Positions 56,054-58,688 of a DNA stretch of 64,000 nt are shown in pieces; position 1 is the stretch's first letter, and each line of letters begins with the position of its first letter. Source of the stretch: a virus; the IMG/VR virus record IMGVR_UViG_3300017917_001030, positions 1 to 64,000 of that record, one strand, 5' to 3'. The notes beneath the pieces are model-generated. The model was given only the letters and a program-made list of their open reading frames with translations. It made no database searches and was not told the DNA's origin. Position numbers and translations under genes: made by a program.

Positions 56054-56493
56054 GTATTTTCGGTGAACCTAAAAAAGAGATCAAAGTAGAGCCCTATAAG
56101 GCGCCTTCGATTTCCCCTTTCGATTTTATAAACTCTATCCATTATACTAAGGAACAGCTAATTGTCGACGATTGGTCTGAGAAACAGTATAATCCATTCA
56201 TTATTAATAAAGGACTTTCCTACGGTGCAGATACGGTAATCCCTGCCAATGAAATGAATTCACGTCCCCACCTGGACAAAAAACTACAATTTTCGTTCTT
56301 AATAAATAATATTAAGCCTCGTAAGAGATTCAATAAATGGATCAAGGCTGAGAAAATTGAAGCGATAGAAGTAATCAAGGAATACTATGGATATAGCACA
56401 GAAAAAGCCCGCCAAGTACTCCCACTTCTTGATGATTCAAAAATTGATTATTTGAGAACAAAACTAATAAAAGGTGGCAGTAATGGCAGATGA
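56050..56493 (+). CDS. gp62: Clamp loader small subunit gp62
   Basis: PFDFINSI, YNPFIINKGLS, ANEMN, RKRFNKW.K, EYYGYS.EKA. Confidence 0.92.
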   Translation: MSIFGEPKKEIKVEPYKAPSISPFDFINSIHYTKEQLIVDDWSEKQYNPFIINKGLSYGADTVIPANEMNSRPHLDKKLQFSFLINNIKPRKRFNKWIKAEKIEAIEVIKEYYGYSTEKARQVLPLLDDSKIDYLRTKLIKGGSNGR

Positions 56494-56914
56494 GATTTTC
56501 CACATTGATTACCCAGGCTACAAGCCGTTGGAGGTAACTTTGGTTCAACCTGACGATTTTTTGAAGGTCAGGGAAACGCTTACCCGTATCGGGGTAGCAT
56601 CACGTAAAGACAAGATTTTATACCAATCGTGTCATATCCTACATAAACAAGGTCGTTATTTTATCGTACATTTCAAAGAGCTTTTTGCGCTAGACGGAAA
56701 AGTTGCAGACTTGACAGATAATGATCTACAGAGACGAAACACTATTGCTAAGTTGCTTGTTGATTGGGGCTTAGTCCAGGTCGTAAATGCAGAGGCATTT
56801 AAGGATATGGCACCGCTTTCGCAGATTAAAGTTATTGCTTTTAAAGATAAGAATGACTGGAATCTACAGACCAAATATAATATTGGCAAGAAAAGACAAG
56901 GTACAGAGCAGTAA
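56483..56914 (+). CDS. regA: Translational repressor RegA
   Basis: DDFLKVRETLTRIGVAS, LYQSCHILHKQGRYFIVHFKELFALDG, RRNTIA.LL.DWGL. Confidence 0.96.
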   Translation: MADEIFHIDYPGYKPLEVTLVQPDDFLKVRETLTRIGVASRKDKILYQSCHILHKQGRYFIVHFKELFALDGKVADLTDNDLQRRNTIAKLLVDWGLVQVVNAEAFKDMAPLSQIKVIAFKDKNDWNLQTKYNIGKKRQGTEQ

Positions 56915-56918
56915 TCTA

Positions 56919-56926
56919 TATAAATA
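56919..56926 (+). promoter_or_regulatory. T4-type late promoter
   Basis: Exact TATAAATA directly after the regA stop. Confidence 0.75.
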
Positions 56927-56930
56927 ATTA

Positions 56931-57138
56931 TATCCCCGGGATGGGAACTAGCAGTCCGAGGTTAAGGCTAGTAAATAATTTCTCGGGCCAATAAACCCTT
57001 ACCTTAGGGCTGTTAGATGTTACAGTAAAAATATCCGTGTAATTACACCTCCGACACGAAAGTTCGGACCAGTATAAGGTAAGCTGGGATTCTATGCCGT
57101 TAGGGTAGAATATTTTTAAACTCGCTTATTTAAGGAGA
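56931..57138 (+). ncRNA. Candidate structured ncRNA / long 5' leader with pseudoknots and kissing loops
   Basis: Longest non-coding gap in the window. At least eight complementary segment pairs found by eye (detailed in findings). Confidence 0.55.
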
Positions 57139-57143
57139 CTATT

Positions 57144-57362
57144 ATGAGCACAATGTACGCAGACATGGCTATTGACGCTGTTCAAAACGCCAAATTAGAA
57201 GTTGTTCGTCATCTTGTTAAGGATGAACAAATCAAGAAACCCCTAGAGCATTTTGTAGAAGCCCAGCGCGTCTATACCAAAGCTGTTACTAAGTCTGTAA
57301 TGGACGTTGCAACAGTTGTAGTTGAGACAACAAATCGCTTCTTTTTCGGTTCTGCAAAATAA
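57144..57362 (+). CDS. Small helical hypothetical protein
   Basis: Strong AAGGAG RBS; 72 aa, amphipathic helical pattern. Confidence 0.65.
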   Translation: MSTMYADMAIDAVQNAKLEVVRHLVKDEQIKKPLEHFVEAQRVYTKAVTKSVMDVATVVVETTNRFFFGSAK

Positions 57363-57374
57363 TAGGAGGTTAAT

Positions 57375-57875
57375 ATGCAATTAGGTAATATTACTTTCGG
57401 TCCTCAATTTAAGGACATGGATAAGTTCTTCGTTGGTTTTGAAGATCAGTTCAACCGTATTGCAAAGATGCATGATGATCTAACAAAGAACATTCCTAAC
57501 TATCCTCCATATAATATTAAGAAAACTGGGGATAACACTTATGTTATAGAATTGGCTGTTGCTGGTTTCGGTAAACAGGATATTGAAATTGAATTGGCTG
57601 ACGGCAAAATGGTTGTTAAGGGTAATATCAGTTCTCAAGAACAAGAAGAAAACTTCTTATTCAAGGGAATCGCAAACAGAGCATTTACTCGTACGTTTGC
57701 TCTTGACGATCATATTGAAGTTAAAAACGCCGAGATGTTCAATGGTATGCTAAAAGTGTTTTTGGAAAAGATTATTCCTGAGCACAAGAAGCCAAAGAAG
57801 ATCGAGGTTACAGATAAATCTGAAGGTACTTCTAAAAGAAAGCAGCAATTGCTGACAGAAGAATCTAAGGATTAA
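57375..57875 (+). CDS. Small heat-shock protein Hsp20 (IbpA-like)
   Basis: NYPPYNI, IELAVAGF, FLFKGIANRAFTRTF.L, NGML...L...IPE.KKP. Confidence 0.93.
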   Translation: MQLGNITFGPQFKDMDKFFVGFEDQFNRIAKMHDDLTKNIPNYPPYNIKKTGDNTYVIELAVAGFGKQDIEIELADGKMVVKGNISSQEQEENFLFKGIANRAFTRTFALDDHIEVKNAEMFNGMLKVFLEKIIPEHKKPKKIEVTDKSEGTSKRKQQLLTEESKD

Positions 57876-57881
57876 ACAAAA

Positions 57882-57901
57882 GAAGAGGGGCGACCCTCTT
57901 C
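57882..57901 (+). terminator. GNRA-capped hairpin after hsp20 (terminator or stability element)
   Basis: GAAGAGGG-GCGA-CCCTCTTC; the U-tract is weak on the + strand. Confidence 0.55.
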
Positions 57902-57920
57902 GTCATTATGGGATTGACAT

Positions 57921-58202
57921 ATGAATATAAAGTTGTTACAATTTACGAATGGTGATGTTATTATAGGGGAGTATAATTATGATGTTGTTAAAAATCCCTT
58001 TTTGTTAACATATCATGTCCATAAAGAGGAAGATGGTCCTGTTCTATCAATGGTGCCCTATGCGTTATTTGCAGTAAATCATAGTATAAATGTTAACCCC
58101 AGTAACGTGATATGGAAAGCAGACCCTAATATTTACATGATAGAGGATTATAAAGTAGCAGTAGATCGTGTACATAATCCCCCTAGTGAGACTACAGAAT
58201 GA
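57921..58202 (+). CDS. Hypothetical Sm-like protein
   Basis: IKLLQFTNGDVIIG...VKNPF...PY pattern, common after hsp20 in T4-likes. Confidence 0.55.
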   Translation: MNIKLLQFTNGDVIIGEYNYDVVKNPFLLTYHVHKEEDGPVLSMVPYALFAVNHSINVNPSNVIWKADPNIYMIEDYKVAVDRVHNPPSETTE

Positions 58203-58613: not shown

Positions 58614-58688
58614 CGCGGGGTAGCGCAGAAGTAGAGCGCCGGGCTCATAATCCGGAGGTCGGAGGTGCGATTCCTTCCCCCGCAACCA
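58614..58688 (+). tRNA. tRNA-Met(CAT), initiator-like, with encoded CCA
   Basis: Acceptor CGCGGGG/CCCCGCA with a C1:A72 mismatch, D stem GCGC/GCGC, anticodon arm CCGGG-CTCATAA-TCCGG, T arm GGAGG-TGCGATT-CCTTC, ACCA end. Confidence 0.9.

What the first reader, a model, noticed from the sequence alone, without database searches (positions are those of the whole stretch)
56931..57138. ~200-nt densely structured non-coding RNA (two pseudoknots plus a kissing-loop pair) behind a late promoter, upstream of the hsp20 operon
Seen, in a genome where genes almost always abut: (a) H-type pseudoknot ACTAGC(56947-52)/GCTAGT(56967-72) with CCGAG(56956-60)/CTCGG(56982-86). (b) Hairpin CCCT-TACCTT-AGGG (56996-57009) and hairpin CCAGT-ATAAGGTAA-GCTGG (57069-87) have complementary loops, or alternatively form a 9-bp helix CTTACCTTA/TAAGGTAAG. 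(c) Second pseudoknot CTGT(57010-13)/ACAG(57022-25) with GATGTT(57016-21)/AATATC(57030-35). (d) GTGT-AATT-ACAC. (e) TCCGA...AC-GAAA-GT...TCGGA. (f) ATTCTA/TAGAAT before the RBS. This is far more structure than a terminator needs, and I cannot match it to a family I know. Inference: a novel ncRNA, ribozyme, RNA thermometer or protein-binding leader; RegA is encoded immediately upstream.
Basis: seen in the sequence. Interest (0 to 1): 0.8.

Follow-up and report, generated by a model that had tools for sequence, protein, structure and literature searches.

The report
Pseudoknotted ROSE-like leader of phage hsp20
The 229-base gap before this T4-like phage's small heat-shock operon encodes a real, conserved folded RNA: a bacterial-type (ROSE-like) temperature-sensing hairpin over the ribosome-binding site, preceded by three pseudoknots of no catalogued family whose job is still unknown.

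Summary
All but the kissing loops are backed by compensatory changes in related phage contigs.

The 3' 60 nt (57089-57137) is a two-hairpin, short ROSE-like RNA thermometer. UCGCU pairs with the Shine-Dalgarno AGGAG around a bulged G. Rfam ROSE_3 gives 29.6 bits, E 4.7e-4, which is below its cut-off of 43. All 70 hsp20-selected relatives that could be assessed carry this hairpin, and so do four named phages: P-SSM4, S-CRM01, Melnitz and HTVC008M.

Upstream lie four elements:
- a late promoter
- a 5' hairpin
- an H-type pseudoknot, PK1

The B/D kissing pair shows no compensatory change. No Rfam family matches the upstream modules. They occur once in this genome, are swapped between relatives, and 5 of 114 assessable domain copies have no ROSE hairpin after them.

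The likely function is temperature-gated translation. The role of the upstream modules is only inferred. This scan has reported the same element on at least 27 other genomes.

The parts
56919..56926 (+). T4-type late promoter motif TATAAATA, 4 nt after the regA stop codon
   Evidence: Read. The motif is not enriched in the window as a whole: 8 matches against 8.85 expected. It is positionally conserved, however. An exact TATAAATA lies within 260 nt upstream of the start codon in 61 of 153 unique related leaders, and the motif or a listed one-mismatch variant in 108 of 153. Use as a transcription start is inferred, not shown.
56933..56946 (+). P1: 5'-terminal hairpin, UCCC (56933-36) / GGGA (56943-46), with loop CGGGAU
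   Evidence: ViennaRNA gives -4.7 kcal/mol. 49 of the 50 unique contexts of the GGGAUGGGA motif fold a hairpin that pairs it with an upstream pyrimidine run, and the stem reaches up to 11 bp in relatives; in L061 the predicted fold does not use the motif. The motif TCCCNGGGATGGGA occurs once in the 130.6-kb genome record.
56947..56988 (+). PK1: H-type pseudoknot. S1 is 56947-52 / 56967-72. S2 is 56954-61 / 56981-88. Loop 3 is A/U-rich.
   Evidence: A pseudoknot search on 56 unique post-P1 segments gave 45 with score >= 9. The observed mean was 9.7 against 2.9 for shuffles. About ten different sequence versions of each stem keep the same topology.
56996..57009 (+). Hairpin B: CCC(U) / (A)GGG, with the conserved loop ACCUU
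   Evidence: Three pairs, 94.3% paired, one of them with two-sided change. The loop residues A, C, C, U, U are invariant in alignment A3.
57010..57035 (+). PK2: H-type pseudoknot. S1 is CUGU 57010-13 / ACAG 57022-25. S2 is GAUGUU 57016-21 / AAUAUC 57030-35. Loop 3 is UAAA.
   Evidence: - S1 is 97.4% paired and S2 96.0% paired on 29 sequences.
- Across 36 unique short and long forms, 19 distinct stem versions flank a loop ACG, with CGU or UGU upstream. For the window and L104 the script picked hairpin e, which has the same build.
- Close relatives in run X8 carry 57020 T>C together with 57031 A>G, 57024 A>G, 57032-33 changes and one inserted G. Every pair is kept.
57036..57058 (+). The mini-hairpin d (57039-40 / 57045-46, loop AAUU) is nested inside it.
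   Evidence: - The third pair reads UA 19, AU 3, GC 3, GU 3, CG 1, so it is paired in 29 of 29 sequences. The rival partner in palindrome d is an invariant A.
- In a wider set, 65 of 65 parsed unique sequences pair here (UA 38, GC 13, GU 7, AU 7); 4 of the 69 unique sequences could not be parsed.
- The inner d pairs covary: UA 19, CG 8, AU 2.
57050..57068 (+). Hairpin e: stem UCCGA 57050-54 / UCGGA 57064-68. Its loop carries the ACG of PK3.
   Evidence: Five stem pairs, all with two-sided changes, 99.2% paired.
57069..57087 (+). Hairpin D: CCAGU / GCUGG, with loop AUAAGGUAA. The loop is complementary to the B loop in this window.
   Evidence: Five pairs, 100% paired, three with two-sided changes, including strand-swapped versions (GCUGG / CCAGC). 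The B-D loop pairing has 0 two-sided changes.
57089..57111 (+). Hairpin E, which is ROSE hairpin I: AUUCUAU-[G bulge]-CC / GG-GUAGAAU, with loop GUUA
   Evidence: It aligns to hairpin 1 of Rfam ROSE_3. 149 of 152 unique leaders fit the core of a Y-G pair, a bulged G, CC/GG and a tetraloop. The four variable pairs are 90-97% canonical and use all four Watson-Crick types. Shuffling partners gives 2.20 of 5 pairs against 4.32 observed.
57121..57137 (+). Hairpin F, the ROSE thermosensing hairpin: CUC-[G57124 bulge]-CUU / AAGGAG. It masks the Shine-Dalgarno sequence (57132-37). The AUG is at 57144.
   Evidence: - Rfam: ROSE_3 29.6 bits, E 4.7e-4; ROSE_2 21.9 bits.
- Folded alone it gives (((.(((....)))))), with dG -6.5 kcal/mol at 10 C falling to -2.1 at 42 C.
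- Across 84 unique F hairpins, the bulged G is predicted in 63 and the SD is fully paired in 64. Median dG is -5.4 at 15 C, -4.1 at 25 C and -2.5 at 37 C.
- It is present in 70 of 70 hsp20-selected loci with enough upstream sequence.
57144..57875 (+). The regulated operon: a 72-aa ORF (57144-57362, no family match) and hsp20 (57375-57875)
   Evidence: Pfam PF00011, E 1.1e-17. PHROG 432 'Hsp20 heat shock protein', E 4.3e-42. The 72-aa ORF has no Pfam or PHROG match, but tblastn finds relatives in most related loci.

Best explanation
The stretch is the 5' untranslated leader of a late-transcribed small heat-shock operon (a 72-aa ORF plus hsp20) of an uncultured aquatic T4-like phage.

Its last two hairpins form a short ROSE-like RNA thermometer. 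At low temperature the motif CUCGCU pairs with the Shine-Dalgarno AGGAG, leaving G57124 bulged, and ribosomes are kept off. The hairpin is only marginally stable. Warming melts it and the sHSP operon is translated. Phage late transcription therefore decides when the mRNA is made, and temperature decides how much protein it yields.

Ahead of the thermometer sit accessory, independently folding modules:
- a 5'-terminal hairpin
- pseudoknot PK1
- a 93-nt domain made of hairpin B, PK2, PK3 and hairpin D

I infer that these act as a compact, nuclease-resistant 5' cap and folding insulator for the message, and possibly as a docking platform for a protein such as the sHSP itself.

Shown: the structure and its conservation, its link to hsp20, and its likeness to ROSE. 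Inferred: the temperature response, the transcription start, and any role of the upstream modules.
For: ROSE likeness:
- The only Rfam signals in 56700-57400 are ROSE_3 (57088-57149, 29.6 bits, E 4.7e-4) and ROSE_2 (21.9 bits, E 0.044).
- A bona fide enterobacterial ibpA leader scores 94.9 bits on its own subfamily, ROSE_2, but only 23.9 bits on ROSE_3. Cross-subfamily scores in the twenties are therefore normal for true ROSE elements.
- The published hallmarks are met: U(U/C)GCU imperfectly paired with the SD in the 3'-proximal hairpin, two to four hairpins, upstream of an sHSP gene (PMC3669281 and PMC4166951, passages).
- Both UCGCU and UUGCU versions occur among relatives: 76, 7 and 1 of 84 unique hairpins read CUCGCU, CUUGCU and UUCGCU.

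Link to hsp20:
- 70 of 70 hsp20-selected loci have the hairpin.
- The exact core pattern is followed by hsp20 at 90 of 112 sites in viral contigs, against 1 of 115 sites in bacterial genomes.
- Four named phages have TATAAATA plus hairpins E and F before hsp20.

Stability: F hairpins keep a narrow, marginal stability, with median dG -4.1 kcal/mol at 25 C and a 10th-90th percentile range of -4.9 to -3.0.

Upstream modules are real:
- Covariation counts support them.
- Natural variants in close relatives keep the pairs.
- Each module occurs once in the genome, at this locus.

Possible protein platform: E. coli IbpA represses its own translation by binding its structured 5' UTR through Arg93 (PMC10474464, passages). 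The phage Hsp20 aligns an Arg at that position, GIANR against GIAER in Salmonella IbpA.
Against: - No leader reaches an Rfam gathering score. The window gets 29.6 bits against a cut-off of 43, and 0 of 20 related loci gave a ROSE hit at gathering thresholds. L229 scores 22 bits and L006 12.7 bits.
- Hairpin F shows no two-sided changes. Its 5' strand is almost invariant, so its pairing rests on conservation and analogy.
- Nearest-neighbour folding of the window leader with 27 nt of coding sequence does not predict temperature-dependent opening. P(unpaired) for the SD stays at 0.52-0.63 from 10 to 50 C. That fold prefers a window-specific alternative hairpin, GCUUAU / AUGAGC, over the start codon.
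- No RNA data exist, so transcription, the 5' end and the temperature response are all untested.
- Five of 114 assessable copies of the B-D domain have no ROSE hairpin after them. Four of these sit directly after the regA stop codon with no late promoter between, and in L513 (less clearly L460) hairpin D is then followed by a U run. In L068 the domain precedes a different ORF. The domain is therefore not an obligatory part of the thermometer, and may serve the upstream message or act on its own.
- The Arg equivalent to IbpA R93 is only permissive evidence.
Confidence: 0.7

Rival explanations
1. The upstream modules, above all the 93-nt B-D domain, form a self-contained portable RNA. It could be a stable non-coding RNA, or a 3'-end or intercistronic stabiliser and terminator for the preceding gene (regA). 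On this view it merely neighbours the thermometer and is not part of hsp20 regulation.
For: - 5 of 114 assessable domain copies have no ROSE hairpin within 330 nt. Four of these abut the regA stop codon with no late promoter between. In L513 (less clearly L460) hairpin D is followed by a U run and then by unrelated genes or tRNA genes.
- In L068 the domain lies after a rubredoxin-like ORF and before a 76-aa ORF, while hsp20 has its own promoter and leader about 270 nt further on.
- A contig in run X8 replaces 56947-57103 with 212 other letters between the same flanks.
- Within the window's clade, hairpin E is often followed by four or more U: 36 of 48 unique leaders.
Against: - 109 of 121 domain sites are followed by ROSE plus hsp20, and another 4 by ROSE before the contig ends.
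- In the window a TATAAATA lies between regA and the modules, and D abuts E with no U run.
- The terminator scan calls nothing on the + strand in 56915-57143.
- The U run after E is not general: only 27 of 87 leaders from the pattern scan have one.
- No read data show a discrete RNA.
Confidence: 0.2
2. The B-D domain, or PK1, is a ligand-binding aptamer. The leader would then be a tandem riboswitch-thermometer.
For: The domain pairs covarying stems with many invariant unpaired residues: 37 invariant columns in the 21-sequence alignment A3, including the B loop, the junctions and the ACG/CGN triplets. Aptamers show this pattern. PK1 and PK2 have the A-rich loop 3 that is typical of compact H-type pseudoknots.
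Against: - No riboswitch family matched at E <= 10.
- The PK1 stems change freely, with no conserved pocket residues.
- The stable hairpin E separates the domain from the SD hairpin, and I found no conserved alternative pairing that links them.
- The modules are optional among close relatives; leaders run from 105 to 229 nt.
- The invariance is inflated by how sequences were gathered: 18 of the 21 came from a pattern inside PK2.
Confidence: 0.07
3. Chance complementarity, or a simple terminator for regA in an AT-rich spacer.
For: The MFE z-score is only -1.90, and 11 of 200 shuffles fold as well. TATAAATA is not enriched in the window.
Against: Compensatory changes are extensive and none of 500 shuffles reaches the observed values. 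Slid-partner controls pair at 28-44%. The CM built from relatives finds the window at 86.4 bits, finds one hit in the genome, and finds none in 85 bacterial loci.
Confidence: 0.01

Closest known systems
Short two-hairpin ROSE-like RNA thermometers of Pseudomonas ibpA (PMC3669281). Rfam ROSE_3, RF02523, is the best-scoring model; that this model derives from the Pseudomonas elements is my recollection, not a call result.
   Same: - Two hairpins directly upstream of an Hsp20-family gene.
- The 3' hairpin pairs U(U/C)GCU imperfectly with the SD.
- The start codon lies outside the hairpin.
- Hairpin I has the same ..AUGCC-loop-GGGU.. core with one unpaired G (alignment).
- The sensing hairpin is marginally stable.
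   Different: - Scores are below the Rfam cut-off (29.6 against 43).
- The element is carried by lytic T4-like phages behind a late promoter, not a sigma-32 promoter.
- The loop and flanks of hairpin F are A/U-rich.
- It is preceded by up to about 155 nt of pseudoknotted modules that no bacterial ROSE element is described as having.
Enterobacterial ibpA leader (Rfam ROSE_2, RF01832) and IbpA self-repression through its 5' UTR (PMC10474464)
   Same: The core CUCGCU-loop-AGGAG is near-identical to the Salmonella ibpA leader fetched here. The protein is 36% identical to IbpA and keeps the Arg that aligns with R93.
   Different: ROSE_2 scores only 21.9 bits. The upstream hairpins are unrelated. 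Autoregulation by the phage protein is untested.
H-type pseudoknot in the 5' leader of the phage T4 gene 32 mRNA (recalled from general knowledge; no call)
   Same: A T4-type phage mRNA whose leader begins with an H-type pseudoknot some distance upstream of the ribosome-binding site.
   Different: A different gene and no sequence likeness tested. In T4 the pseudoknot is a nucleation site for gp32 autoregulation. Here there are three pseudoknots, and nothing links them to an ssDNA-binding protein.
Orphan structured RNA motifs of cyanophage and aquatic metagenomes in Rfam (for example freshwater-2, RF02980)
   Same: A conserved, covarying RNA of unknown function that is widespread in uncultured aquatic phage contigs.
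   Different: There is only a chance-level hit to freshwater-2: 14.2 bits against a cut-off of 49.9, E 5.5, on L006 and overlapping hairpins E and F. No hit appeared at gathering scores on the window or on 20 loci. The paper's main text does not describe that motif, and its supplements were closed.

Membership tests
ROSE-like RNA thermometers | Lies in the 5' UTR directly upstream of a small heat-shock (Hsp20-family) gene | tested here: met
   The hairpin ends 6 nt before the AUG of the first gene of a two-gene operon whose second gene is hsp20 (PF00011). In relatives that lack the 72-aa ORF it directly precedes hsp20. It is present in 70 of 70 related loci.
ROSE-like RNA thermometers | A U(U/C)GCU motif imperfectly paired with the SD in the 3'-proximal hairpin (PMC3669281) | tested here: met
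   CUCGCU 57121-26 pairs with AGGAG 57133-37, leaving G57124 unpaired in the isolated-hairpin MFE. Among 84 unique hairpins the motif reads CUCGCU in 76, CUUGCU in 7 and UUCGCU in 1. The bulged G is predicted in 63 of 84.
ROSE-like RNA thermometers | Two to four stem-loops, with the upstream hairpin(s) conserved in structure | tested here: met
   Hairpin E covaries: 149 of 152 leaders fit, with 104 distinct stems. The window has more elements than any described ROSE leader.
ROSE-like RNA thermometers | Reaches the curated Rfam gathering score of a ROSE family | tested here: not met
   ROSE_3 gives 29.6 bits against 43, and ROSE_2 gives 21.9 against 65. 0 of 20 related loci gave a ROSE hit at gathering thresholds. 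As a control, a true ibpA leader scores 94.9 bits on ROSE_2 but only 23.9 on ROSE_3.
ROSE-like RNA thermometers | Temperature-dependent melting of the SD hairpin and temperature-dependent translation | not testable with these tools
   The energy model gives dG -6.5 kcal/mol at 10 C falling to -2.1 at 42 C for F alone. It predicts no temperature-dependent SD opening in the full leader. Reporter assays and structure probing are needed.
Intrinsic terminator / attenuator | A G+C-rich stem followed directly by a U run, on the + strand | tested here: not met
   The scan calls no + strand site in 56915-57143. Hairpin E is followed by AUAUUUUU, but its stem is bulged and A/U-rich.
Known riboswitch or ribozyme families (Rfam 15) | A covariance-model match | tested here: not met
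   There were no matches other than ROSE at E <= 10 in the window leader, and only chance-level hits in two variant leaders.

The most novel reading that the evidence does not exclude
The pseudoknot modules (P1-PK1 and the 93-nt B / PK2 / PK3 / D domain) are a new class of portable, self-folding phage RNA. Phages place it at the ends of messages. There it would act as an RNase-blocking cap, a bacterial-virus counterpart of the exonuclease-resistant RNAs of eukaryotic viruses. Alternatively it is the operator through which the phage sHSP senses protein aggregation and tunes its own synthesis. Either way the hsp20 leader would be a two-input (temperature plus proteostasis or decay) RNA device.
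Probability: 0.2. Interest if true: 0.8.

Novelty: new variant of a known kind. Interest (0 to 1): 0.6.

Why it matters
hsp20 is widespread in T4-like phages of cyanobacteria, SAR11 and other aquatic bacteria: 497 phage records matched it. What controls the gene has not been described in the literature I could search.

If the hairpin works like bacterial ROSE elements, these lytic phages gate a chaperone by temperature at the RNA level. That would be one of very few RNA thermometers known in phages. It would also be testable directly in E. coli reporters.

The attached triple-pseudoknot leader is strongly supported by covariation and is short (about 155 nt), with no catalogued family. It is a tractable target for structure determination and for asking how phage messages are protected or sensed.

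Tried and rejected
- Rfam at gathering scores on the whole window gave only a tRNA at 58614-58685. On 20 related loci it gave only tRNAs.
- The weak freshwater-2 hit (E 5.5) was followed into PMC5737381. The main text has no mention of it and the supplements are closed. I dropped it as chance.
- The search for related loci with the 72-aa ORF found no relatives.
- The scan of bacterial genomes for the ROSE core pattern returned 120 stretches. Only 1 of the 115 assessable sites had hsp20 downstream, so it gave no clue to host or origin.
- Kissing loops or the 9-bp helix: complementary in the window, but with no compensatory change, and the central pair forms in only 13 of 29 sequences. I searched by eye for another partner for the invariant B loop (the SD region, loop 3 of PK2). 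None held across variants.
- Leader peptide: the AUG inside P1 opens 17 codons in the window. Reading the relatives' sequences by eye, it opens only 2-3 codons in L038 and L006. There is no SD. Rejected as coding.
- Sequencing runs: no RNA holder was listed. The four runs laid were DNA contigs only, so nothing can be said about expression, the 5' end or processing.
- Literature searches found no paper describing a ROSE-like element or RNA thermometer on a phage hsp20 gene. The searches were 'RNA thermometer' + phage + hsp20, 'ROSE-like' + bacteriophage + 'small heat shock protein', cyanophage + 'RNA thermometer', and 'ROSE element' + phage + thermometer + 'heat shock'. For these I saw listings and abstracts only, except PMC10884466, where I read passages. 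The library does not cover most subscription journals.
- L061 was dropped from alignment A3 because MAFFT misaligned its 5' part. It is included in the CM alignment A4.
- Loci L400-L434 were not searched with R1.
Two of the five non-hsp20 copies lie on contigs that carry tRNA genes.
Full report
**What is there.** The window is part of a 130.6-kb viral record of a T4-like phage. The record encodes clamp-loader subunits, RegA, Hsp20 and tRNAs.
- RegA (56474-56914) matches Pfam PF01818 at E 1.1e-47. The next ORF starts at 57144 (72 aa, no family), and hsp20 follows at 57375-57875 (PF00011, E 1.1e-17).
- The 229-nt gap opens with TATAAATA (56919-26).
- No isolated phage is close. RegA DNA is at most about 72% identical to cyanophages in the 40 records listed, and Hsp20 is below 45% identical to any phage record.
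- Near-identical DNA occurs in pond, aquaculture, wastewater, lagoon and estuary metagenomes.

**The 3' end is a ROSE-like thermometer.**
- A permissive Rfam scan of 56700-57400 returned only two families. ROSE_3 matched 57088-57149 at 29.6 bits (E 4.7e-4, cut-off 43). ROSE_2 matched at 21.9 bits (E 0.044, cut-off 65).
- The alignment shows hairpin E (57089-57111: AUUCUAU, bulged G, CC / GG, GUAGAAU) and hairpin F (57121-57137). In F, CUC-G-CUU pairs with AAGGAG and G57124 is bulged.
- This is the published signature of ROSE-like elements: a U(U/C)GCU motif imperfectly paired with the SD in the 3'-proximal hairpin, two to four hairpins, always on small heat-shock genes (PMC3669281 and PMC4166951, passages).
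- As a control I used the Salmonella ibpA leader, taken from a record that the phage-collection search returned. It scores 94.9 bits on ROSE_2 but only 23.9 bits on ROSE_3. A score in the twenties across subfamilies is therefore what a true ROSE element gives.
- Formally, no phage leader passes a gathering score: 0 of 20 loci did. The element is best called a ROSE-like subfamily of its own.

**Conservation and association.**
- The Hsp20 protein retrieved 597 relatives in IMG/VR, of which 80 were kept. All 70 loci with at least 400 nt upstream carry the F motif before the first gene of the operon.
- A scan for the core pattern alone found hsp20 downstream at 90 of 112 assessable viral sites, against 1 of 115 sites in bacterial genomes.
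- The named phages P-SSM4, S-CRM01, Melnitz and HTVC008M all show a late-promoter motif, then E, then F, before hsp20. Both UCGCU and UUGCU versions occur among them.
- Hairpin E covaries heavily. 149 of 152 unique leaders fit its core. The four variable pairs are 90-97% canonical and use all four Watson-Crick types. There are 104 distinct stems. The mean is 4.32 of 5 pairs, against 2.20 +/- 0.09 when partners are shuffled.
- Hairpin F is nearly invariant, so it gives no covariation. Its stability is narrow and marginal across 84 unique versions: median dG is -5.4, -4.1 and -2.5 kcal/mol at 15, 25 and 37 C. The bulged G is predicted in 63 of 84 and a fully paired SD in 64 of 84.

**The upstream modules.** Leaders of relatives range from 105 to 229 nt, and the window's is the longest of 31 unique regA-adjacent leaders. 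They are built from optional modules.
- *P1* (56933-46) is a 5' hairpin that uses the conserved GGGAUGGGA. It forms in 49 of 50 unique contexts (not in L061), with stems of up to 11 bp.
- *PK1* (56947-88) is an H-type pseudoknot with an A/U-rich loop 3. 45 of 56 unique post-P1 segments yield such a knot, with a mean score of 9.7 against 2.9 for shuffles. About ten unrelated sequence versions of each stem keep the topology.
- *The 93-nt domain* (56995-57087) was modelled as a covariance model.
  - It finds the window at 86.4 bits and nothing else in the genome.
  - It finds 29 loci at 47-107 bits, and none in 85 bacterial control loci.

**A third pseudoknot.** The weak spots in that structure were the outer pairs of palindrome d and the apical pairs of hairpin e.
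- These bases instead form a third pseudoknot: CGN just 3' of PK2 (window 57036-38) pairs with N'CG in the e loop (57056-58).
- The variable pair reads UA 19, AU 3, GC 3, GU 3 and CG 1, so it is paired in 29 of 29 sequences. Its rival partner in d is an invariant A.
- In a wider sample, 65 of 65 parsed unique sequences pair here; 4 of the 69 unique sequences could not be parsed.
- With PK3 in place the structure reaches 97.6% paired cells and a covariation score of 0.395, against 0.153 for shuffles. None of 500 shuffles reaches this, and slid partners pair at 31-44%.

**PK2.**
- Nineteen different stem versions, across short and long forms, all flank a loop ACG with CGU or UGU upstream.
- Natural variants in a close relative (run X8) change 57020, 57024 and 57031-33 and insert one base, yet keep every pair.

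**What is not supported.**
- The B-loop/D-loop contact is complementary over 9 nt in the window and over 6 nt in many relatives. It has no two-sided change, and its central pair forms in only 13 of 29 sequences. It remains open.
- The nested MFE alone is unremarkable: z = -1.90.
- No riboswitch, ribozyme or other family matched.
- No RNA data are available, so the promoter, the transcript ends and the temperature response are all inferred.
- Simple folding of the whole leader plus 27 coding nt does not predict temperature-dependent SD exposure. It proposes a window-specific hairpin over the AUG.

**Portability.**
- Of 121 sites with the domain in viral contigs, 109 are followed by ROSE plus hsp20 and 4 by ROSE before the contig ends. 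Three end too early to tell, and 5 have no ROSE hairpin within 330 nt.
- Four of those five abut the regA stop codon without a late promoter. In L513 (less clearly L460) hairpin D is followed by a U run, and the L447 and L513 contigs carry tRNA genes.
- In L068 the domain precedes another small ORF, while hsp20 keeps its own promoter and minimal leader.
- A metagenomic contig replaces 56947-57103 with other sequence between the same flanks.
- The modules therefore fold on their own and are exchanged. That argues against an obligatory mechanistic coupling to hairpin F. It fits a generic role such as protection from decay, insulation of folding, or a protein platform.
- On the last of these, IbpA is known to repress its own translation by binding its structured 5' UTR through Arg93 (PMC10474464, passages). 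The phage Hsp20 keeps the aligned Arg. This makes binding possible but does not demonstrate it.

**Verdict.** The thermometer belongs to a known kind (ROSE-like), here in a phage-specific subfamily. The pseudoknotted 5' modules match no described family and their function is unknown.

After reaching this reading I consulted the scan's earlier notes. The same leader type had already been reported on at least 27 other genomes with the same conclusions. One note's claim that the domain is portable prompted, which bear it out in part.

Noticed in passing
window 57144-57362: The 72-aa ORF between the leader and hsp20 has no Pfam or PHROG match. tblastn finds relatives at 32-53% identity in most related loci, and it is absent from others, where the leader abuts hsp20 directly. 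It is the gene the thermometer hairpin actually masks in this window.
   Followed up: partly
window 57882-57901: A perfect 8-bp G+C-rich hairpin lies just after the hsp20 stop codon. The scan calls it terminator-like only on the minus strand, and no U run follows it on the + strand. A sigma-70-like promoter (TTGACA, 17-nt spacer, TACAAT; 11 of 12 matches) follows at 57914-57942.
   Followed up: no
L023, L037, L041, L043, L046, L067, L071, L068 (upstream of the leader): In several relatives the gene before the hsp20 leader is not regA. It is a roughly 43-aa ORF with two CxxC pairs, which looks rubredoxin-like (read). No family search was run on it.
   Followed up: no
L249, L260, L061 (between PK2 and hairpin d): Three relatives carry an extra inserted hairpin. 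Its loop again reads (A)CGUA(A/U)A, the same build as hairpin e and the PK2 hairpin. This suggests the domain grew by duplicating a 'CGN ... stem-N'CG-A-rich-stem' pseudoknot unit.
   Followed up: partly
window 57125-57149: There is a window-specific alternative hairpin, GCUUAU (57125-30) / AUGAGC (57144-49), which would mask the start codon instead of the SD. It is the predicted MFE when coding sequence is included. The relatives I read begin their first ORF with other codons, so by eye it does not look conserved; I did not test this across the set.
   Followed up: partly
window 58614-58685: A tRNA scores 54.4 bits on the Rfam tRNA model, downstream of the hsp20 block. An earlier first-reader note calls it an initiator-like tRNA-Met. 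I did not examine it.
   Followed up: no
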